Shown piece after piece: positions 1-55,009 of a stretch of 64,000 bases of DNA (positions are counted from its first letter, which is position 1; each line of letters begins with the position of its first letter). The stretch comes from Bacteriovoracia bacterium (GTDB lineage: Bacteria; Bdellovibrionota; UBA1018; JBFWNL01). Under the pieces are notes generated by a model. The model was not told the origin of the DNA, searched no databases, and saw nothing but the letters and a program-made list of their open reading frames with translations. Location of the stretch: assembly GCA_050251055.1 (NCBI GenBank), contig JBFWNL010000001.1, positions 235,825-299,824 of the forward strand, read 5' to 3'. The translations under genes and the position numbers were made by a program.

Positions 1-1001
1 GCGGCCTCCCGGATAAAAGTCGCCCCGGGGATTTCCGCGCCGGGGGTGAGGAATGCCTCGTAGAGTGGGCGATGCTCGGGGATCCTGCACCACTTCGTGA
101 TCTCGGCCCGCAGACGCGCTTCTTCGCGGGCCGCGATCGCCTGCCTTTCCAGGACCTCGTCAATTTCTTGCAGCCATTCGCGCACCGTCCGCGCATACTC
201 CGCCATCGTGTCGCGGCCCCTGATCGTGGAGTCCGCCAGCTCGAGGTCGGTCAAGAAGTCCGCGAGGTCGGCGCGAAAAACCCCTAGATTCTTGAAGTCG
301 CGATTCTCGAAGCGGGCTTTCGAGAGCGTGAAATAGAGGCGGAGTCCGGCGGCGGTGATCTGGGGGCGAATCACCTCCAGGTTTCCGGCATACCGAGTCC
401 CCCCTACCATCATGCCATCGCGCTTCACGCGAAAGGAGTATTCCTTTCCCTGGAGCGGCGAGAGGAGGGTCTTTAAAATCCTTCGCATGTCCTTAATAGT
501 GATATCGCTGCGCAAGGTTGTTCGTGCCTGGGCCAAGAAGGTCGGCCACTCGTAGGGATCGCAACCGTTGAAGTCTTTTTTTCGGTACGCTTCCCAGCGT
601 TTCAAAAATTCGTCCACGGTCTCATTCCCTCGCAGGGGCTGCGGTGCGGGGCGAGTGAGCGGAGGACGAGGCCCCGGGGGGGCTGGCGTGGTGCCCGGGG
701 ACGCACCGCCGGGAGGCACCCAGCCCGCGGGATTGATGATTCCGTCGCAAAGCGCGATATCCTCGGCGTCCATGACCGAGTATCCGCGGGTCAGTTGGCA
801 GAGAGAGTCGAGGAGCCTGCAGTATTCGCCCCAGATCCGATCGGAGCCGTAGGTCTTCTGAATGCACGCGCCGACGATCGTCGTTACTTCCTTAGCCTGG
901 AAGTAACGGTAAGCGTGGGCGGGGGGCATGTAGATGAGTGCCGACATGCCGACGAGCGCAAGGATCAGCCTTTGGCGGAAACGGGGCTTTGGGCCGGTCA
1001 C
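1..1001 (-). CDS. Secreted hypothetical protein, partial (runs off window); N-terminal 4-Cys module paralogous to 998..2425
   Basis: Not in the ORF track because it has no stop in the window. Manual translation from GTG at 1001, which overlaps the upstream stop as GTGA: MTGPKPRFRQRLILALVGMSALIYMPPAHA-YRYFQAKEVTTIVGACIQK... The frame stays open to the window edge. Signal peptide ends in AHA. Confidence 0.85.
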   Translation of the reverse strand, partial: MTGPKPRFRQRLILALVGMSALIYMPPAHAYRYFQAKEVTTIVGACIQKTYGSDRIWGEYCRLLDSLCQLTRGYSVMDAEDIALCDGIINPAGWVPPGGASPGTTPAPPGPRPPLTRPAPQPLRGNETVDEFLKRWEAYRKKDFNGCDPYEWPTFLAQARTTLRSDITIKDMRRILKTLLSPLQGKEYSFRVKRDGMMVGGTRYAGNLEVIRPQITAAGLRLYFTLSKARFENRDFKNLGVFRADLADFLTDLELADSTIRGRDTMAEYARTVREWLQEIDEVLERQAIAAREEARLRAEITKWCRIPEHRPLYEAFLTPGAEIPGATFIREA

Positions 1002-2425
1002 GGGAACTCCTTCTGGTACGCTTCGGAGCCCGCGCCCATCAGTTGCAGGTAAAGATCCACGCTCACGGAAACCACGCTATCTTCATAGGCCTGGTAAAGG
1101 CGACGCACGAGGGCGTAAGGCTTAGCGCAGTCACGCACGCGCGCGAGCAAGCGGCGATAACCTTCGACCGTGTCCATTTTCAGTAGCCAGTGGTCGTCGG
1201 CGACGATCTTGCCTAACCGGGAGGGGGGAAGCGCCGTCTGCCAAGGCGAAACCTTTCTTTTGGCCGCCAGCGCGTCTTCCAGTAGCCGCAGCGAGCGTAG
1301 AGCGGACTCGAGGTCCTCCATGCGGCAGCTCGTGGCTTTGCTTTCCATGGCCGCGAAAACCGCTTCGGGCGATGGGAGGGCAAGAAGTTCCACCAGCGCT
1401 TGAATTTCTGGGGCGCCGAAAGCCGTGGCCTTCGCGCCGGGCGGAGGAAACTCGAAGAGCCGAAGCTTTAAGTCGGCGTTCGCCATCCCCGGAAGGGCGC
1501 GTTCGAGTTCGGTGAAAACCTTGGAGGCATCCTGTGCAGCGGACGAACGGGAGCGTTTTAGTGAATCGACCAGCGCTGGATAAAGCACGCCTTGCTGGCT
1601 GGGGTCTAATCGTTTGAACGCGCCCTGGAACGCCGCGATCCAGGCTTCCGTGAGATTGCGCTCAAGAGTTTGCGTAATCTCGGTCGTGAAGACCTTGTCC
1701 TTGTTGATCCGATACTGCTCGTAGTTCTTCGGCGGGGAACCAAAGGCGGAGCTACTGTAGCCATTCGGCGTCCAAAGCTTCCAGCCAAGGCCCTTGCGCT
1801 CGAGCCGGTACCCATCGATGCGCATGTTGTCCACGAAAATACTTCGCAGCTTGGTTTCGTCAGACATGGAGCTGACGAAGAGCTCGCCGATGCCGCGCAT
1901 GGTCTGCGGACACTGGCGCATGCCATCGATCAGCATGTCTTCGGAATAAATTTCGTCCCGGTAATGGGAGAAAACTAATTTCGCATATCCTTCGCCGGAG
2001 GAAGTCGCATCCCAGGTATAACCCCCATAGTTGAAGAAGCCGCCGGGGCCGGGCCGGAGCAGGTTCGCGGGGCACTGCGTGCCTTCATACACGCAGGAAG
2101 GTTGCTTGGGGTCGTAGGGACAGCGGGGATTGAGCTTTCTCATCTCACGCGTGAAGGCGCGATCGGCGGCGGTTTTGAGCTCGCGGCAGAGGACCTGGTC
2201 CTCCATGTCCAGGAAGCGCGAGAGTTCGCAGGCGCTCACTAAGTGATGGCATTTGCGCCGATCTTCCACGGACGCGGTGTCGTCCGGCCAGTTCGCTAGG
2301 CAGTCCTGGGCGAGCTTGAACAGCGCCGCATCCGCGAAAATCGTGTAGGCGTGAGCGGCGGGCGGCGCGAGCGAAGTCAGCGCTAGCGCTAAAGTGATGA
2401 GCAGCGGTTTCCAGAAACACTTCAC
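998..2425 (-). CDS. Secreted Cys-rich hypothetical protein (475 aa)
   Basis: Long ORF with signal peptide ending PAAHA; GTGA overlaps with both neighbours; no family recognised. Confidence 0.85.
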   Translation of the reverse strand: MKCFWKPLLITLALALTSLAPPAAHAYTIFADAALFKLAQDCLANWPDDTASVEDRRKCHHLVSACELSRFLDMEDQVLCRELKTAADRAFTREMRKLNPRCPYDPKQPSCVYEGTQCPANLLRPGPGGFFNYGGYTWDATSSGEGYAKLVFSHYRDEIYSEDMLIDGMRQCPQTMRGIGELFVSSMSDETKLRSIFVDNMRIDGYRLERKGLGWKLWTPNGYSSSAFGSPPKNYEQYRINKDKVFTTEITQTLERNLTEAWIAAFQGAFKRLDPSQQGVLYPALVDSLKRSRSSAAQDASKVFTELERALPGMANADLKLRLFEFPPPGAKATAFGAPEIQALVELLALPSPEAVFAAMESKATSCRMEDLESALRSLRLLEDALAAKRKVSPWQTALPPSRLGKIVADDHWLLKMDTVEGYRRLLARVRDCAKPYALVRRLYQAYEDSVVSVSVDLYLQLMGAGSEAYQKEFP

Positions 2426-3348
2426 TGGCGGCCTCCGGAGGAGCGCGAGCCACGGCGAGCGGGCTTCTCGGTGGGCTTGGCCGGGGCCGGCCAGCTCATC
2501 TCGATGCCTCCGACGGCGTGATAATTAAGGGAGTCGACGGAAAGCTGCGCCTGGAAGCGGCCCAGGGTTTCGGGGTTTTCCCGGATGGAGCTCACGAAAA
2601 AACTCATGGGGGTGGCGAAGATCGCCGGTACGTCGCCGACGATGTACTCGGTGCCTTGTACGGCGACGGGAGGGATTTCCTGGAAGATTGATTTTGCGAT
2701 CGCGACCACTTCACCGGCGTCGTTCACGAGCGGGCTGCCGGAATTTCCGGCGCGCGCGGTACAGGCGACGAGCGTCCAGTTGTGCTTTTCGATGCCGGCG
2801 CCTCCGCAGATTTCCAGATCGATCGTGGGCTCGTATCCGGCGCGCGGCTCGGCGATGTATCGGTTGTCGAAGGTGGACGAGATTTTCCAGGGGTGCTTGG
2901 GCGGTTTTGCGGCGCCGACGATCGGAAGCGGCTGAATCCCCGGGATGTCCACGGATTCCTCGAGGCGTAGAAGTGCGTAGTCTTCGAGGCTGGTTTCAAA
3001 CACGATCTGGGTGGAAAGATAGCTCTGGATGCGTTCGGCGTTGGGGCGGTTGGGTGCTTGCGGCGCGCGAAATAGCACGCGGGTGCGGACCGTTTCTTCG
3101 GGCCGGCGGGCGATGCAGTGCTGATTGGTGAGGACGAGCTGTTTACCAACGAGAAATCCCGTACAGGCGCCCGTGCTCGTGACGCTCCCCTTGGCGTCGA
3201 GCTTTTCCATGATCAGCGTCGCCGTAGCCCGTAAGGCTTGGGTCACGCCGGCGGGGATGGCGCGTCCCAGGTTCGGGTTGGGGTCGGCGGCACAAAGCAG
3301 CGAGAGGCCGAGACTCGGTAGGGTGAGGGTCCATACTTGCCAGTTCAT
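2422..3348 (-). CDS. Secreted trypsin-like (S1/PA clan) serine protease
   Basis: Catalytic triad motifs LTNQHC (His), EDYALL (Asp), GNSGSP (Ser); N-terminal hydrophobic signal. Confidence 0.9.
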   Translation of the reverse strand: MNWQVWTLTLPSLGLSLLCAADPNPNLGRAIPAGVTQALRATATLIMEKLDAKGSVTSTGACTGFLVGKQLVLTNQHCIARRPEETVRTRVLFRAPQAPNRPNAERIQSYLSTQIVFETSLEDYALLRLEESVDIPGIQPLPIVGAAKPPKHPWKISSTFDNRYIAEPRAGYEPTIDLEICGGAGIEKHNWTLVACTARAGNSGSPLVNDAGEVVAIAKSIFQEIPPVAVQGTEYIVGDVPAIFATPMSFFVSSIRENPETLGRFQAQLSVDSLNYHAVGGIEMSWPAPAKPTEKPARRGSRSSGGRQ

Positions 3349-3459
3349 GACCGGCGAAAATTACTATAATTGATTTAATTAATCAACATAACACTAACGC
3401 AGTGCATATATTTAAAAATCATGTAATTACAAATGATTGTGCGGCTTTTTTCGGGTTGC

Positions 3460-3547
3460 GAGGTGACGGTGAGAATCGCCCTGCGCTTCTTCGCCTCCGG
3501 CTCAGTCGCTGCGGGCTCACCCTCGTCGCTCCTCGGGTTCGATTCTC
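3460..3547. repeat. Duplicated tRNA-Cys 3' end followed by a palindromic segment
   Basis: gaggtgacggtgagaatcg at 3460-3478 is identical to 3615-3633 in the tRNA; gagaatcg (3471-3478) is inverted to cgattctc (3540-3547). Confidence 0.8.
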
Positions 3548-3612
3548 CCGATGATGGATTCATCGCTATTCGGCTCTGCGGCTATTTTGTGATTTTTTGG
3601 GAAATTTTTATT

Positions 3613-3688
3613 TGGAGGTGACGGTGAGAATCGAACTCACAAAATACGGTTTTGCAAACCGTCCCATTAGCCATTCTGGCACGTCACC
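3613..3688 (-). tRNA. tRNA-Cys (GCA)
   Basis: Cloverleaf GGTGACG...ACGGT-TTGCAAA-ACCGT...GTGAG-TTCGATT-CTCAC-CGTCACC-T-CCA, with encoded CCA and U73 discriminator. Confidence 0.97.
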
Positions 3689-3704
3689 CCTTCAAGGAGA
3701 GACC

Positions 3705-3733
3705 AATCTAGCTCGCGCGGGAGAATTTTTGAA
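3705..3733 (-). promoter_or_regulatory. Putative sigma70 promoter of tRNA-Cys
   Basis: Minus strand TTCAAA-N17-TAGATT, 16 nt upstream of the mature tRNA. Confidence 0.6.
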
Positions 3734-3746
3734 CCCCTAAAATCGG

Positions 3747-3784
3747 ACGGGCCAGGTGCCGCATTCGTGCAACACCTGGCCCGT
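3747..3784 (-). terminator. Strong hairpin, probable 3' end of the riboswitch-containing RNA
   Basis: 12-bp perfect stem acgggccaggtg/cacctggcccgt; only a weak U tract (ccgatttt) on the minus strand. Confidence 0.55.
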
Positions 3785-3861
3785 GAGAATTGAAGAGGAG
3801 GTCCGGGTAGGGGACCCCCCTTTGAAACTGTATTCGGTCATTCCTGACCGCGAGTTCCGCT

Positions 3862-3959
3862 CCTTTGGCAACCTGGCAAGCTTAGACCCTCGGGGTAAAG
3901 GTCGTTAGCCCCATGGCTTTGCGTGTTCAGCCTTTCGACTGACTTGCCTTTTTCAAAGG
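3862..3959 (-). ncRNA. c-di-GMP-I (GEMM) riboswitch aptamer
   Basis: Minus strand cctttgaaaaaGGCAAgtcagtcGAAAggctgaacACGCAAAGCCatggggCTAA...gccaGGTTGCCaaagg matches the GEMM consensus (GGCAA, GNRA-capped P2, ACGCAAAGCC, CTAA receptor, GGTTGCC); P1 is cctttg/caaagg. Confidence 0.9.
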
Positions 3960-4080
3960 GGGTATGAGGATTAACCCACCTCTTCAAGCGGCTCCTCCTG
4001 AGCCTATGACTTCCTAAAGCGTCGAGAAATTGTTAAATTCCCTTCTCTGAGTTCAGGATATCTGGAATTGCTGCGGATGG

Positions 4081-4130
4081 CAAATATTAATATAACTATT
4101 TGATATTAAATGATTTAGTCTTAATATTTG
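4081..4130. promoter_or_regulatory. AT-rich inverted repeat enclosing an IHF-like site
   Basis: caaatattaa/ttaatatttg 10-bp inverted repeat; the internal taactatttgata is the reverse complement of WATCAANNNNTTR. Confidence 0.5.
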
Positions 4131-4259
4131 CGTGTGTCTTGGCTTTAATTGTTAATTTTGCTGATGCCTCGGAAGGTGCGGCGTGAGCTAGCCCATTCTT
4201 ATCAGGATCCTCGCGCTTGCGTTGCGTCTGGGGCAGCTCATGGTTAAGATTTGAGGCGA

Positions 4260-5387
4260 ATGAGGGGCTTGGGAACGATAGCGGCCGTTGCGTTGGCCAT
4301 CGGAGGGAGTGGGGGTATCGGGCACGCTACGTCCACGACTCCCGCCGTAACCCAAGACTCCCCGGGATCCTTTTCCCAGAAAACCGTCCATGATTTCCCT
4401 CTACGCTCGATCGGTAAACTGCAGGTTTCCAATCGCCACGGCGCGGTCTCCGTAAAGGGCTGGAGCCAAGACAAAATTCGCGTGACGGTTGTGAAGCTTA
4501 CGCAAGCCACCGACGAAGCGGAAGCCTCGACTCAGTTTCAGCAGCTGGGGCTTTTGCAGCGCGGGCGCGGCGAGCACTTCGAACTCATCGCTCAGTATGG
4601 AAGGGCGATGGGCATCGAGCAGCGGTTGGCCAATACGAAAGCTCCGAAGGTGAGGTTGGATCTGGAGATCCAAGCCCCCGCGAAGCTGCTGCTTCAGGCT
4701 TGGACGACGGGCGATCGGATCGCCGTGAAAAACTGGCACGCGCCGGTGGACGTGCGCACGGAGACGGGGCTGATACAGATTGAAGAAGTGCGCGCCAAGG
4801 AAGTGAAGGCGACGTGCGTTGCGTGCGGCATGAAAATTCGAGCCATTTCCGGCTCCGTTAGGTGTTTAGGAGGGAGTGGCGACATCGATCTGCGCGACCT
4901 TGCATCGGATCAAATTTACGTCGAGACCTCGAGTGGAGCGATCTTGCCGAATCGCACGAACGGTAATCAGCTTTACGTCACGCAGGGCGGGGCGATTCTT
5001 GGCAAGAGTTTAAACGGAAGGGTGGAGTTTCAAACGAAGTCCGGGCGCGTGGATCTTTCGCAGTCGGCGGGTTTTGCTAGCGGCCGGACCACGAGCGGCG
5101 ACGTGCGGGTGGAGATGGCGAAGTGGAAGTTCCTGGATCGGGCCGTGTTCGAATCCGAACTGGGACAGATCTCCTTGAAGCTCCCATCCGACTTTTCCGC
5201 CACCGTGGACCTGCGGACGGAGCGGGGCAAGATGCGATTGGAGTTCCCGCTGCGCGTTTTGCGGGATGACGAGGAAAGCCTCAAGAATTCCGCGACTCGC
5301 CTCAAGGGAGCCATCGGCGAAAACGACCATCACAATCTGACGGTTTACAGCCGGATGGGTAACGTGAGAGTGCTGCGTGGGAGCTGA
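4260..5387 (+). CDS. DUF4097 family beta-strand repeat (adhesin-like) exported protein
   Basis: Signal peptide; repeated motifs such as TETGLI, TSSGAI, TKSGRV, TTSGDV, SELGQI, SRMGNV. Confidence 0.8.
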   Translation: MRGLGTIAAVALAIGGSGGIGHATSTTPAVTQDSPGSFSQKTVHDFPLRSIGKLQVSNRHGAVSVKGWSQDKIRVTVVKLTQATDEAEASTQFQQLGLLQRGRGEHFELIAQYGRAMGIEQRLANTKAPKVRLDLEIQAPAKLLLQAWTTGDRIAVKNWHAPVDVRTETGLIQIEEVRAKEVKATCVACGMKIRAISGSVRCLGGSGDIDLRDLASDQIYVETSSGAILPNRTNGNQLYVTQGGAILGKSLNGRVEFQTKSGRVDLSQSAGFASGRTTSGDVRVEMAKWKFLDRAVFESELGQISLKLPSDFSATVDLRTERGKMRLEFPLRVLRDDEESLKNSATRLKGAIGENDHHNLTVYSRMGNVRVLRGS

Positions 5388-53657: not shown

Positions 53658-54350
53658 ATGCGGCTAAACTTCACGAACGATTACATATTTTTTACGCGAC
53701 AGGGCGAAGGAAAGTACACGGGGGTCCCCTCTGTCTTCGTGCGTCTTTCGGGATGTAATTTGCGCTGCACTTGGTGTGACACGCCGTATTCAAGTCATGC
53801 TCCGGAGCGCCTTTCGCACACGGTGGAAGAAACACTCGAGCGCCTCTTGGCTTTTGATTGTGAGCACGTCGTGGTCACCGGCGGCGAACCTTTCTTACAG
53901 CCGGGCGTGAAGGCCCTCATCGATGGATTAGTGGATGCCGGCAGATTCGTGACGGTCGAGACCAACGGCACGATTGCGCTCGAAACGAAGGCGCAGTTTC
54001 TCAGCATTAGTCCGAAGCTGGGTAATTCAACTGGGCCCCAGACCGTTGGAAATCACGAAAAACTCCGACTGGACCTCGACACTTTGGTGAAGCTCGTGCA
54101 AGTCCCACATCAGTTGAAGTTTGTCGTTTCAAGCGAAGAGGACGTGCGCGAAGTGCAGTCGATCACAAAAGAGCTTCGGACACGGCTAGGGGAGTATGAC
54201 GAATCGAACGTCATGCTCATGCCCCAAGGGGTTTCGGTCCCGGCCCTCGATGCCGGTCTCGCCTGGATCCGACCGCGTGCCGAGAAGTTAGGCTGGGCGG
54301 TCAGCGATCGCTTTCACGTAAGGCACTACGGCAATCGGAGGGGCGTGTGA
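53658..54350 (+). CDS. queE: 7-carboxy-7-deazaguanine synthase (radical SAM)
   Basis: QGEG, CNLRCTWCDT, TGGEP, ETNG, SPK. Confidence 0.93.
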   Translation: MRLNFTNDYIFFTRQGEGKYTGVPSVFVRLSGCNLRCTWCDTPYSSHAPERLSHTVEETLERLLAFDCEHVVVTGGEPFLQPGVKALIDGLVDAGRFVTVETNGTIALETKAQFLSISPKLGNSTGPQTVGNHEKLRLDLDTLVKLVQVPHQLKFVVSSEEDVREVQSITKELRTRLGEYDESNVMLMPQGVSVPALDAGLAWIRPRAEKLGWAVSDRFHVRHYGNRRGV

Positions 54351-55009
54351 GCACGGCTTTGGTGTTGCTATCGGGTGGCCAAGACAGTGCGACTTGCGCC
54401 GCGTGGGCGGCGGCGCGTTTCGAACGCATCGAATGCTTGAGTTTTTTTTATGGCCAGAAACACCGCCGTGAGCTCGAGGCGGCCGAACGAATCGCGGCGC
54501 TCTTTCGTGCACCATGGCGGACGGTGGATATCCCGGCCCTTTACGCGCACCCGTCTTCCAGCCTGACGAATTCCAAGCTGGCGCATGCCGCTACGGCGCA
54601 AGGAGAGCTTCCTGTTTCTTTCGTGCCAGGGCGCAACCTGATTTTCTTAACGACCGCGGCCTCGCTCGCGCTGGGTCGAGGAATCGCCGATATCGTGACC
54701 GGAGTATGCCAGACCGATTACTCGGGGTATCCCGATTGCCGAGCCGACACGATTTCCGCGCTCGAGCGCGCATTGAAACTCGGCAATGCTGGCTTCGGCC
54801 GCGCGGCGGACCTGCGCATCCACACCCCACTCATGGAACTCACCAAGGCCCAGACCGTGAAAATGGCACGCGAACTTCCTAAAGGCTGGGAAGCGCTCGC
54901 CATGTCGTGGACCTGCTACGAAGGTGGCGCCAAGCCCTGTGGCGAATGCCCCGCTTGCGAGTTACGCAAGAAAGGCTTTGCCGAAGCCGGCGAAACGGAC
55001 CCCGCATGA
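54347..55009 (+). CDS. queC: 7-cyano-7-deazaguanine synthase
   Basis: SGGQDS, YGQKH, FVPGRN, YPDCR, TCY..CGECPAC. Confidence 0.95.
   Translation: MSTALVLLSGGQDSATCAAWAAARFERIECLSFFYGQKHRRELEAAERIAALFRAPWRTVDIPALYAHPSSSLTNSKLAHAATAQGELPVSFVPGRNLIFLTTAASLALGRGIADIVTGVCQTDYSGYPDCRADTISALERALKLGNAGFGRAADLRIHTPLMELTKAQTVKMARELPKGWEALAMSWTCYEGGAKPCGECPACELRKKGFAEAGETDPA

What the first reader, a model, noticed from the sequence alone, without database searches (positions are those of the whole stretch)
3747..3987. Stand-alone c-di-GMP riboswitch RNA with no regulated CDS
Seen: a c-di-GMP-I aptamer (minus strand, 3862-3959) enclosed by long-range stems (ttgaagagg 3790-3798 with cctcttcaa 3979-3987), a GGAA-tetraloop hairpin (3835-3850) and a terminal 12-bp hairpin (3747-3784). 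The only gene downstream is tRNA-Cys, which has its own sigma70-like promoter (3705-3733). Known: these riboswitches normally sit 5' of CDSs; Bdellovibrio bacteriovorus merRNA is a highly expressed stand-alone RNA with this aptamer. Inference: a merRNA-like c-di-GMP sponge or a ligand-switched trans-acting sRNA. An alternative is a riboswitch gating read-through into a tRNA, which would be very unusual.
Basis: partly seen in the sequence, partly recalled or inferred. Interest (0 to 1): 0.85.

Follow-up and report, generated by a model that had tools for sequence, protein, structure and literature searches.

The report
Orphan c-di-GMP riboswitch small RNA
This is a real c-di-GMP-sensing RNA of about 310 bases that ends at its own terminator and controls no protein gene here, one member of a single-copy RNA family kept throughout an uncultured order of predatory-type bacteria, much like the unexplained merRNA of Bdellovibrio.

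Summary
Rfam c-di-GMP-I matches window 3864-3958 (-) at 70.2 bits against a cut-off of 35, the only copy found in the genome. The long-range stem, the GGAA hairpin and the terminal hairpin are all present.

The RNA belongs to a family found once per genome in 87 of 116 genomes of the window's order. Fifty distinct copies share one scaffold: a 5' hairpin, a GAAGAGG/CCUCUUC outer stem, the aptamer, a second distal partner for the P1 5' strand, and a hairpin plus U-run.

In 40 of 50 copies queE follows. It has no Shine-Dalgarno-like sequence in 0 of 36 cases and usually has its own -10-like element 3-14 nt before the start codon. In the window and five relatives queE is missing, yet the RNA is intact. 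tRNA-Cys has its own promoter.

Best reading: an independent, ligand-switched small RNA that works like merRNA but has different flanks. What it acts on is unknown, and no direct expression data exist for this organism.

I rate it a new variant of a known kind.

The parts
4055..4083 (-). Predicted sigma-70-type promoter of the RNA: TTGCCA (4083-4078), 17 nt, TATCCT (4060-4055). The predicted start is near 4048.
   Evidence: Found by the promoter scan. The same TTGnnn, 16-17 nt, TAnnnT layout stands upstream of the RNA in most relatives, read by eye. The window lacks the TAACGC-N3-GCGTTA palindrome that many relatives carry in the spacer.
3990..4004 (-). H0, the 5' hairpin: GGCUC-AGGAG-GAGCC.
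   Evidence: A hairpin of at least 4 pairs stands at this place in 50 of 50 family members, with 50 different sequences.
3979..3987 (-). 5' strand of the outer stem S1 (UUGAAGAGG).
   Evidence: The seven core pairs are paired in 92-100% of 50 sequences and are nearly invariant. The only changes give G-U pairs.
3951..3962 (-). Shared 5' strand CCCCCUUUGAAA. It can pair either with the proximal CAAAGG (P1) or with the distal UUUCAAAGGGGG.
3864..3958 (-). c-di-GMP-I aptamer.
   Evidence: RF01051, 70.2 bits. Its stems covary strongly in 50 sequences.
3862..3867 (-). Proximal P1 3' strand (CAAAGG), followed by AGG.
   Evidence: 98% of cells are paired. There are C-G to U-A double changes at two pairs, in 3 and in 6 sequences.
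3835..3860 (-). H2, the variable hairpin region, including the GGAA-loop hairpin at 3850-3835.
   Evidence: A hairpin of at least 4 pairs stands here in 44 of 50 relatives. Its length and sequence vary.
3816..3827 (-). Distal strand UUUCAAAGGGGG, the alternative partner of 3951-3962.
   Evidence: 94% of cells are paired over 12 pairs and the changes keep pairing through G-U. It is the partner in the minimum-energy fold of 44 of 50 sequences.
3800..3816 (-). H3 hairpin: GGUCC-CCUACCC-GGACC.
   Evidence: At least 4 pairs in 49 of 50 sequences. Some relatives carry an inserted hairpin here with an ACCCC loop.
3790..3798 (-). 3' strand of the outer stem S1 (CCUCUUCAA).
3739..3784 (-). Terminator-like 17-pair hairpin (3784-3747) and U-run (3742-3739). 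This is the predicted 3' end of the RNA.
   Evidence: A strong hairpin followed within 0-8 nt by a U-run stands here in 50 of 50 relatives, and 48 of 50 have at least 4 U in 8.
3705..3733 (-). Promoter-like site of tRNA-Cys (TTCAAA, 17 nt, TAGATT). This is a neighbour, not part of the RNA.
   Evidence: An exact TTGACA stands upstream of tRNA-Cys in 18 of the 21 relatives where queE or another gene lies between the RNA and the tRNA (counted by eye).
3613..3688 (-). tRNA-Cys (GCA), the neighbouring gene.

Best explanation
Window roughly 4048 to 3738 (-) is a free-standing non-coding RNA gene of about 310 nt. It has its own sigma-70-type promoter and ends at its own hairpin and U-run.

A canonical c-di-GMP-I aptamer sits inside a conserved scaffold. 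The 5' strand CCCCCUUUGAAA can close the aptamer in two ways:
- with the adjacent CAAAGG, giving P1, the ligand-competent form;
- with a distal repeat UUUCAAAGGGGG, giving a longer helix that also covers three junction A residues.

I infer that c-di-GMP bound during transcription holds P1. The G-run then pairs with the C-rich H3 region. Without ligand, the distal strand takes over. Neither form touches the terminator or a ribosome-binding site of a gene. The output is therefore the shape of the RNA itself: its stability, or which invariant segments (GAAGAGG/CCUCUUC, AAAGGAGG, ACCCC loops) are free to bind a partner or to hold ligand.

The RNA belongs to a single-copy family kept across the window's uncultured order of Bdellovibrionota. 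It normally lies between a DUF4097 gene and queE. In this genome queE has gone from the site and the RNA has stayed.

Shown: the aptamer, the family, the conserved scaffold, both pairings, the terminator, and the loss of queE.
Inferred: the switch logic, the transcript ends, and action in trans or as a sponge.
For: Aptamer and copy number
- 70.2 bits against a cut-off of 35.
- One copy found in G000.
- 88 of 116 genomes of the order have a hit, 87 of them exactly one.

Scaffold
- 50 distinct sequences align over the whole scaffold. 79 columns are at least 90% conserved, and the window departs at 3 of them (median 2, range 0-9).
- Outer stem and distal stem: 92.2% of 1041 cells are paired. The slid controls give 43-70%.
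- Proximal P1: 98% paired, with double changes in 3 and in 6 sequences. The covariation score was reached by 0 of 500 shuffles.
- The distal partner is used in the minimum-energy fold of 44 of 50 sequences and the proximal partner in 0 of 50. Forcing P1 costs 5.8 kcal/mol on average. With P1 forced, the script's five-letter labels for the partners of the G-run read almost entirely 3'-side in 45 of 50 sequences.

Terminator
- A hairpin and U-run follow CCUCUUC in 50 of 50 sequences.

Independence from queE
- Of 36 adjacent queE starts, 0 have GGAG, GAGG or AGGA at -18 to -4.
- 21 of 36 have TGnTA with its hexamer ending 3-14 nt before the start codon. Shuffles give 1.7.
- This suggests queE is leaderless with its own promoter.

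RNA kept without queE
- Of the 50 copies, 49 have enough downstream sequence to judge. Six of these 49 have no queE within 3 kb downstream: the window, L022, L023, L026, L086 and L093. L023 has only 445 nt downstream but has tRNA-Cys at +109.
- The next downstream gene converges on the RNA in L026, L041 and L093.

Other support
- tRNA-Cys has its own TTGACA-type promoter in relatives.
- The ligand is plausible: 7 GGDEF matches in G000.
- Precedent: merRNA is a 445-nt stand-alone riboswitch RNA (PMC3627812, passages). Its locus in G167 ends at an equivalent terminator with a convergent gene.
- Weak support: contigs from RNA libraries of four studies carry relatives' copies (80-98% alike) across 3788-4019.
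Against: - There are no expression data for this organism. The RNA-library evidence is contigs of relatives, and such contigs cannot show ends, strand or level and may contain DNA.
- The outer and distal stems are nearly invariant, so covariation neither proves nor disproves them. In one search the shuffles match the observed values (148 of 500 reach the percentage paired).
- queE lies next to the RNA on the same strand in 40 of 50 copies, only tens of bases after the terminator. That would also fit a cis-acting attenuator.
- The leaderless-queE reading rests on motif counts, not on mapped transcript starts.
- The window's U-run is short (4 U, 4 nt after the stem) and the terminator scan did not flag it. 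Read-through toward the tRNA is therefore possible.
- The window's promoter lacks the palindrome seen in many relatives.
- No target, partner or ligand binding has been shown.
Confidence: 0.62

Rival explanations
1. The family is an ordinary cis-acting riboswitch leader that attenuates transcription into queE. The window's copy is an orphan left behind when queE was deleted. It may still be transcribed but has no function of its own.
For: - queE follows the RNA on the same strand in 40 of 50 copies. The blastx match begins 3-261 nt after the CCUCUUC motif.
- The terminator stands between the aptamer and queE, as in transcriptional riboswitches.
- The window's promoter lacks the palindrome of its relatives, and its U-run is among the weakest.
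Against: - The alternative pairing does not involve the terminator.
- No queE start has a Shine-Dalgarno-like sequence (0 of 36). 21 of 36 have a -10-like TGnTA right before the start codon. A read-through transcript would therefore be poorly translated.
- The RNA is kept intact in six lineages without an adjacent queE, from at least three families of the order. The window shows 3 departures in 79 conserved columns, L086 and L093 show 0, and L022 shows 2.
- G034 and G016 keep the RNA although no QueE was found in their genomes with the query used.
- In Bdellovibrionaceae the single-copy riboswitch RNA is followed by a convergent gene.
Confidence: 0.17
2. The riboswitch gates read-through from its strong promoter into tRNA-Cys, so that c-di-GMP tunes the supply of this tRNA.
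For: - tRNA-Cys starts 50 nt after the short U-run, on the same strand.
- The same direct RNA-then-tRNA order occurs in L022 and L023.
- tRNA-Cys lies within 3 kb downstream on the same strand in 24 of 50 copies.
Against: - The tRNA has its own promoter. An exact TTGACA stands upstream in 18 of 21 relatives that have a gene between the RNA and the tRNA (by eye). The window has a weaker TTCAAA, 17 nt, TAGATT site.
- In most relatives queE or other genes separate the RNA from the tRNA.
- No alternative structure competes with the terminator.
Confidence: 0.07
3. The RNA is chiefly a protein decoy, for example for CsrA or for ribosomes. c-di-GMP decides whether its GGA-type and Shine-Dalgarno-like motifs are exposed.
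For: - G000 encodes CsrA (90.9 bits).
- The loop of the 5' hairpin contains GGA in 30 of 50 sequences.
- AAAGGAGG follows the aptamer, and half of it is buried when P1 forms.
- The window's H2 loop is GGAA.
Against: - GGA is missing from 20 of 50 H0 loops.
- The H2 loops vary.
- No binding data exist. The CsrA site consensus is recalled, not tested here.
Confidence: 0.08

Closest known systems
merRNA of Bdellovibrio bacteriovorus HD100 (Karunker et al. 2013, PMC3627812; passages read)
   Same: - Same phylum.
- A single c-di-GMP-I aptamer per genome: 37 of 37 genomes of family f16 have exactly one hit.
- The aptamer sits inside a longer RNA that ends at a hairpin and U-run about 125 nt after it.
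- No same-strand coding sequence is controlled.
- A 5' flank complementary to a distal 3' segment is also visible in G167 (UCCUUCC and GGAAGGA, by eye).
   Different: - The flanks are not alike. merRNA has about 234 nt before the aptamer and lacks the GAAGAGG/CCUCUUC stem, the ACCCC loop and the G-run.
- G167's record (contig of 3,782,950 bases) is not among the 80 listed of the 97 stretches that matched the family's 5' pattern.
- The window's family normally lies next to queE.
- Massive attack-phase expression is shown for merRNA only.
Vc2 riboswitch-bearing small RNAs upstream of tfoY in Vibrio cholerae (Pursley and Waters, bioRxiv 10.1101/617340; abstract and outline read)
   Same: [quoted passage not shown]
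   Different: There the aptamer is at the 3' end of the small RNAs, the ends are not made by termination, and a regulated gene (tfoY) follows. Here 125 nt of conserved structure and a terminator follow the aptamer.
Classical c-di-GMP-I riboswitches (Rfam RF01051)
   Same: The aptamer is a full-length, high-scoring member.
   Different: No coding sequence follows in the window. The alternative pairing competes for P1 but overlaps neither a terminator nor a ribosome-binding site.
Riboswitch-containing trans-acting RNAs such as SreA (SAM) or EutX/Rli55 (B12). These are recalled. The merRNA paper's discussion mentions the class without my having checked the names.
   Same: A riboswitch is used as the sensor of a non-coding regulatory RNA.
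   Different: The ligand and the organisms differ, and no target is known here.

Membership tests
Rfam c-di-GMP-I aptamer (RF01051) | The covariance-model score reaches the curated gathering score over the full model. | tested here: met
   70.2 bits against 35, model positions 1-87 of 87.
Rfam c-di-GMP-I aptamer (RF01051) | Two-hairpin fold with a GNRA tetraloop on the first hairpin, supported by covariation. | tested here: met
   The GAAA loop aligns to the model. The stems of both hairpins show many double changes in 50 sequences, for example 15-20 sequences per pair.
Rfam c-di-GMP-I aptamer (RF01051) | The ligand-contacting nucleotides of the Vc2 structure (G20, A47, C92; positions recalled, not looked up). 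| tested here: inconclusive
   GGC, the A run of ACGCAAA and the CC of GCCAAA are invariant in 50 sequences. My mapping to the Vc2 numbering comes from memory.
Rfam c-di-GMP-I aptamer (RF01051) | Binds c-di-GMP. | not testable with these tools
   This needs in-line probing or ITC.
merRNA-type stand-alone riboswitch RNA | An aptamer within a discrete RNA that ends at a terminator and has no same-strand coding sequence downstream. | tested here: met
   Hairpin 3784-3747 and U-run, then tRNA-Cys with its own promoter-like site. No conserved ORF is present. The transcript ends are predicted, not measured.
merRNA-type stand-alone riboswitch RNA | Sequence homology to Bdellovibrio merRNA outside the aptamer. 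| tested here: not met
   The flanks of the G167 locus share none of the family's motifs.
merRNA-type stand-alone riboswitch RNA | Very high, life-stage-specific expression. | not testable with these tools
   Only contigs of relatives from RNA libraries are available. There is no culture of this organism.
Classical cis-acting riboswitch | A regulated coding sequence in the same transcription unit. | tested here: not met
   The window has none. In relatives queE follows but lacks a Shine-Dalgarno-like sequence (0 of 36), and 21 of 36 have their own -10-like element.
Classical cis-acting riboswitch | An expression platform in which the alternative pairing includes the terminator or the ribosome-binding site. 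| tested here: not met
   The competing strands are 3862-3867 and 3816-3827. The terminator hairpin is predicted in all 50 sequences whatever the state. This rests on folding predictions only.

The most novel reading that the evidence does not exclude
Bdellovibrionota as a phylum may keep one c-di-GMP-sensing small RNA per genome, with Bdellovibrio merRNA as one lineage and this order-wide RNA as another. On this reading the RNA is not a passive sponge. It is a two-state riboregulator: c-di-GMP decides co-transcriptionally between P1 and a distal anti-P1 helix. That choice exposes or hides invariant single-stranded motifs (ACCCC loops, AAAGGAGG, UUUCAAA) that bind mRNAs or a protein such as CsrA, or that set the RNA's own half-life.
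Probability: 0.3. Interest if true: 0.85.

Novelty: new variant of a known kind. Interest (0 to 1): 0.62.

Why it matters
The function of merRNA has been open since 2013. The original paper reported no conservation outside the Bdellovibrio lineage (PMC3627812, passages).

Here a second, structurally distinct family of single-copy, terminator-bounded c-di-GMP riboswitch RNAs appears across a whole uncultured order. Fifty sequences define invariant motifs and a clear two-state pairing scheme. Natural 'experiments', genomes that lost the neighbouring queE yet kept the RNA, argue that the RNA has a job of its own.

This gives concrete mutations, probing constructs and comparative tests for what stand-alone c-di-GMP riboswitch RNAs do.

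Tried and rejected
- The search for related loci with the upstream DUF4097 protein found no relative in genome contigs.
- Anti-terminator idea: I considered the 3' arm of the 5' hairpin pairing with the 5' arm of the terminator. I dropped it by eye, because the two do not change together (for example L034). I made no formal test.
- Pseudoknot idea: I considered the invariant ACCCC loop pairing with the G-run. It cannot be tested because both sides are invariant. L081 lacks ACCCC but keeps the G-run.
- CsrA decoy: GGA stands in only 30 of 50 loops of the 5' hairpin, so I kept this as a minor rival.
- Small ORFs 3838-3987 and 3737-3871 overlap the aptamer and the hairpins. I set them aside because the relatives differ there by insertions and deletions of many lengths.
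- no contig of the four RNA runs lay on 3693-3787 or joined the RNA to the tRNA. The contigs are from relatives with other neighbours, so this says nothing.
- the small shares of words in the listed runs are not used for habitat or expression.
- the tail count after the terminator was faulty, because the fold ran past the hairpin. One search replaces it.
- One search was a script error of mine, mended.
- Literature: searches found no paper that links a c-di-GMP riboswitch with queE or reports merRNA-like RNAs outside Bdellovibrio. The 'quee' hits were listings only and looked unrelated. The library lacks many subscription journals.
- I did not ask for supplementary files. The merRNA paper's supplements (its Figure S1 of sRNA folds) might bear on the comparison.
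- I built no covariance model and made no protein fold or complex prediction, because none was needed.
Full report
**Observation.** Rfam's c-di-GMP-I model matches window 3864-3958 on the minus strand at 70.2 bits (gathering score 35, E 1.9e-12, all 87 model positions). A tRNA lies at 3616-3688, and ARAGORN calls it tRNA-Cys(GCA), 3613-3688. A permissive Rfam scan of 3400-4300 finds nothing else. They are UUGAAGAGG at 3987-3979 with CCUCUUCAA at 3798-3790, the hairpin CGGUCA-GGAA-UGACCG at 3850-3835, and a terminal hairpin at 3784-3747. That hairpin has 17 pairs rather than 12. A four-U run at 3742-3739 follows it. The 266-nt region folds at -118.6 kcal/mol, z = -5.5, and 0 of 200 shuffles fold as well. 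No ORF of 30 aa or more lies between the aptamer and the tRNA other than two frames that overlap the RNA's own hairpins.

**A family, not a one-off.** The aptamer is the only RF01051 hit in the window's genome, which has 21 contigs and is 93.5% complete. In the window's order, 88 of 116 genomes have a hit, and 87 of those have exactly one. Every genome of the order is a multi-contig assembly.

I fetched 20 loci from relatives, and all 20 carry the aptamer. Sixteen match RF01051 best and four match the variant RF03167 best. I then scanned one genome per species for a pattern built from the family's 5' motifs. It matched 97 stretches, of which 80 were returned. Of those 80, 45 also carry the family's 3' motif. 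Of those 45, 41 carry Bdellovibrio-, Bacteriovorax- or Oligoflexia-type labels and 4 are labelled only 'Proteobacteria bacterium'. None of the loci labelled Clostridia, Geobacter and the like has the 3' motif. After removing duplicates, 50 distinct sequences remain, including the window.

**Architecture.** All 50 sequences align end to end (A2). 79 columns are at least 90% conserved. From 5' to 3' the elements are as follows.
- A GC-rich hairpin H0. It has at least 4 pairs in 50 of 50 sequences, and all 50 sequences differ.
- GAAGAGG, the 5' strand of the outer stem.
- A small, weak hairpin H1, with at least 4 pairs in 22 of 50.
- CCCCCUUUGAAA, the shared 5' strand.
- The aptamer, whose second hairpin loop nearly always contains ACCCC.
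- CAAAGG, the proximal P1 3' strand.
- One or two variable hairpins H2, with at least 4 pairs in 44 of 50.
- UUUCAAAGGGGGG, the distal strand.
- A GGUCC...GGACC hairpin H3, present in 49 of 50.
- CCUCUUC, the 3' strand of the outer stem.
- A strong hairpin followed within 0-8 nt by a U-run, in 50 of 50. 48 of 50 have at least 4 U in 8.

RNAalifold recovers the outer stem, the distal stem and the aptamer stems, the last with abundant double changes.

**Pair counts.** The seven core pairs of the outer stem form in 92-100% of sequences, and the 12-pair distal stem in 94%. Both are almost invariant. The only changes give G-U pairs, and the shuffle control is uninformative: 148 of 500 shuffles reach the percentage paired. 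The slid controls drop to 43-70%. The proximal P1 is 98% paired and does covary. C-G becomes U-A at two pairs, in 3 and in 6 sequences, and 0 of 500 shuffles reach the covariation score.

**Two states.** The same 5' strand cannot make both helices at once. Without constraints, the minimum-energy fold uses the distal partner in 44 of 50 sequences and the proximal partner in 0 of 50. Forcing five P1 pairs costs 5.8 kcal/mol on average (-90.4 against -84.6). With P1 forced, the script's five-letter labels for the partners of the G-run read almost entirely 3'-side (the H3 region) in 45 of 50 sequences. The distal helix also covers three A residues at the aptamer junction. I therefore infer that it is the ligand-free form and P1 the ligand-bound form. 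The cost of forcing P1 is smaller than the binding energy of a nanomolar ligand; the merRNA paper quotes about 1 nM. The terminator takes part in neither state.

**What lies downstream.**
- In 40 of 50 copies a QueE-type radical-SAM gene begins 3-261 nt after CCUCUUC by blastx. Its best NCBIfam match is TIGR04349 at 242 bits, below that model's cut-off of 300. It also matches Pfam Radical_SAM.
- In 3 copies it lies 872-1199 nt away.
- In 6 copies none is found: the window, L022, L023, L026, L086 and L093.
- One locus, L032, is too short to tell.
- tRNA-Cys follows on the same strand within 3 kb in 24 of 50 copies, usually just after queE.
- The upstream neighbour, usually on the opposite strand, is a DUF4097/LiaG-like gene. 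In the window it is 4251-5387 on the plus strand.

The ancestral order is therefore DUF4097 gene, RNA, queE, tRNA-Cys. The window, L022 (G034) and L023 (G016) have lost queE from between the RNA and the tRNA. These three genomes belong to three different families of the order. In L026, L041 and L093 the next downstream gene converges on the RNA.

**Is queE under the riboswitch?** Probably not by the usual route. I could place the queE N-terminus in 36 adjacent copies. None has GGAG, GAGG or AGGA at -18 to -4. 21 of the 36 have TGnTA with its hexamer ending 3-14 nt, mostly 6-10 nt, before the start codon, against 1.7 expected from shuffles. Most of the rest show a TAnnnn element at the same place. 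That is the signature of a leaderless gene with its own promoter, which a read-through transcript would not translate well. This is an inference from motifs.

The tRNA likewise has its own promoter. An exact TTGACA stands upstream, followed about 17 nt later by TGCTA, in 18 of 21 relatives in which another gene precedes the tRNA (by eye). The window's TTCAAA, 17 nt, TAGATT is a weaker version of that promoter.

**Is the window's copy decaying?** I see no sign of it. It departs from consensus at 3 of 79 conserved columns (median 2, range 0-9). The other copies without queE show 0, 0, 2, 6 and 8 departures. It keeps a promoter, TTGCCA, 17 nt, TATCCT at 4083-4055. That promoter matches the layout seen upstream of the relatives' RNAs, though without their TAACGC-N3-GCGTTA palindrome.

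G000 has a different QueE-like gene fused into an operon with queC at window 53658-55009. With that query, G031, G013 and G026 show only the riboswitch-adjacent QueE, and G034 and G016 show none. G000 has 7 GGDEF matches, so c-di-GMP is presumably made.

**Relation to merRNA.** I searched a sample of 151 genomes of the phylum. All 37 genomes of one family (f16) have exactly one RF01051 hit. One of these genomes, G167, is a single contig of 3,782,950 bp. Its hit at 1,073,868-1,073,951 (-) falls inside the published merRNA coordinates, 1,073,741-1,074,185 (-).

At that locus the aptamer is followed by a hairpin, a segment complementary to the 5' flank, and a terminator whose U-run ends a few bases before the published 3' end. 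The next gene converges on the RNA. The plan is therefore alike, and the distance from the aptamer to the 3' end is nearly the same: 127 nt there, and 125 nt to the end of the U-run here. The flanking sequences share none of the motifs of the window's family, and merRNA has about 234 nt ahead of the aptamer. I file the window's RNA as working like merRNA, not as a copy of it.

**Expression hints.** No RNA run holds this organism's sequence. The only runs holding half or more of its sampled words are two DNA runs of one study. I laid four RNA-library runs from four studies at 80% likeness. They gave short contigs of relatives' copies across 3788-4019. One 155-nt contig has 3 differing letters over 3860-3998. 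One 239-nt contig covers 3807-4019 and runs 25 nt further upstream, close to the predicted start. Several contigs end just upstream of GAAGAGG in what I recognise, from memory, as sequencing adapter. Contigs cannot show ends, strand or level, and the libraries may hold DNA, so this is only a weak hint that the family is transcribed.

**Literature.** The merRNA paper reports massive attack-phase expression and no conserved ORF. It found no conservation outside the Bdellovibrio lineage, and it proposes a sponge model (passages). A 2025 preprint uses the merRNA promoter as the strongest native promoter tested (passages). The Vc2 preprint shows c-di-GMP-dependent stabilisation of small RNAs that end in a riboswitch (abstract). 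Searches found nothing on such RNAs in other Bdellovibrionota or on a link to queE. The one ComFB paper I checked mentions riboswitches only in general terms.

**Limits.**
- Transcript ends, ligand binding, the switch and any target are predictions.
- The outer and distal stems lack covariation.
- The family alignment was made with MAFFT and is poor in the variable hairpins.
- Counts marked 'by eye' were not scripted.
- I did not consult supplements.

Noticed in passing
window 3460-3477 and 3615-3632 (-): An exact 18-nt direct repeat of the 3' end of tRNA-Cys lies 155 nt downstream of the tRNA. There are 2 matches against 0.01 expected by chance. It looks like the scar of an element that once integrated into the tRNA gene.
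   Followed up: partly
L141 (G167), L143, L144, L145, L147, L150, L151, L152, upstream of the aptamer: In Bdellovibrionaceae and other families of the phylum, a short ORF of about 12-17 codons with a strong AGGAGG-type ribosome-binding site lies upstream of the aptamer. It ends in ...DPPPK...SPK or similar. In G167 it lies about 170 nt upstream of the aptamer, inside the published merRNA (read by eye). The window's RNA has no such ORF.
   Followed up: no
Relatives' loci, 40-60 nt upstream of the 5' hairpin (for example L028, L053, L031, L073): A palindrome TAACGC-N3-GCGTTA, or near versions of it, sits in the spacer of the RNA's promoter and overlaps the -10 element. This suggests an operator for an unknown regulator. 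It is absent from the window's promoter (by eye).
   Followed up: no
36 relatives' loci, just before the queE start codon: queE appears to be leaderless. There is no Shine-Dalgarno-like sequence in 0 of 36 cases, and a TGnTA -10-like element ends 3-14 nt before the start codon in 21 of 36.
   Followed up: yes
window 53658-55009 (+): A second, divergent QueE-like gene lies here (about 35% identical to the relatives' QueE). It overlaps the start of queC, which scores 216 bits to TIGR00364 against a cut-off of 150. It may have replaced the lost riboswitch-adjacent queE.
   Followed up: partly
L034, L035, L037, L040, L045, L056, L058, L096, L116: insertion in hairpin H3: The extra hairpin inserted in H3 again carries an ACCCC loop, the same motif as the aptamer's second hairpin loop. 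This hints that ACCCC loops are a functional unit.
   Followed up: no
L022, L024, L028, L031: Four of the 20 relatives' aptamers score better against the variant model RF03167 (c-di-GMP-I-GGC) than against RF01051. I did not examine what this means for ligand choice.
   Followed up: no
window 2422-3348 (-) and 998-2425 (-): Downstream of the tRNA lie a trypsin-like peptidase gene and a 475-aa ORF with no Pfam match.
   Followed up: no
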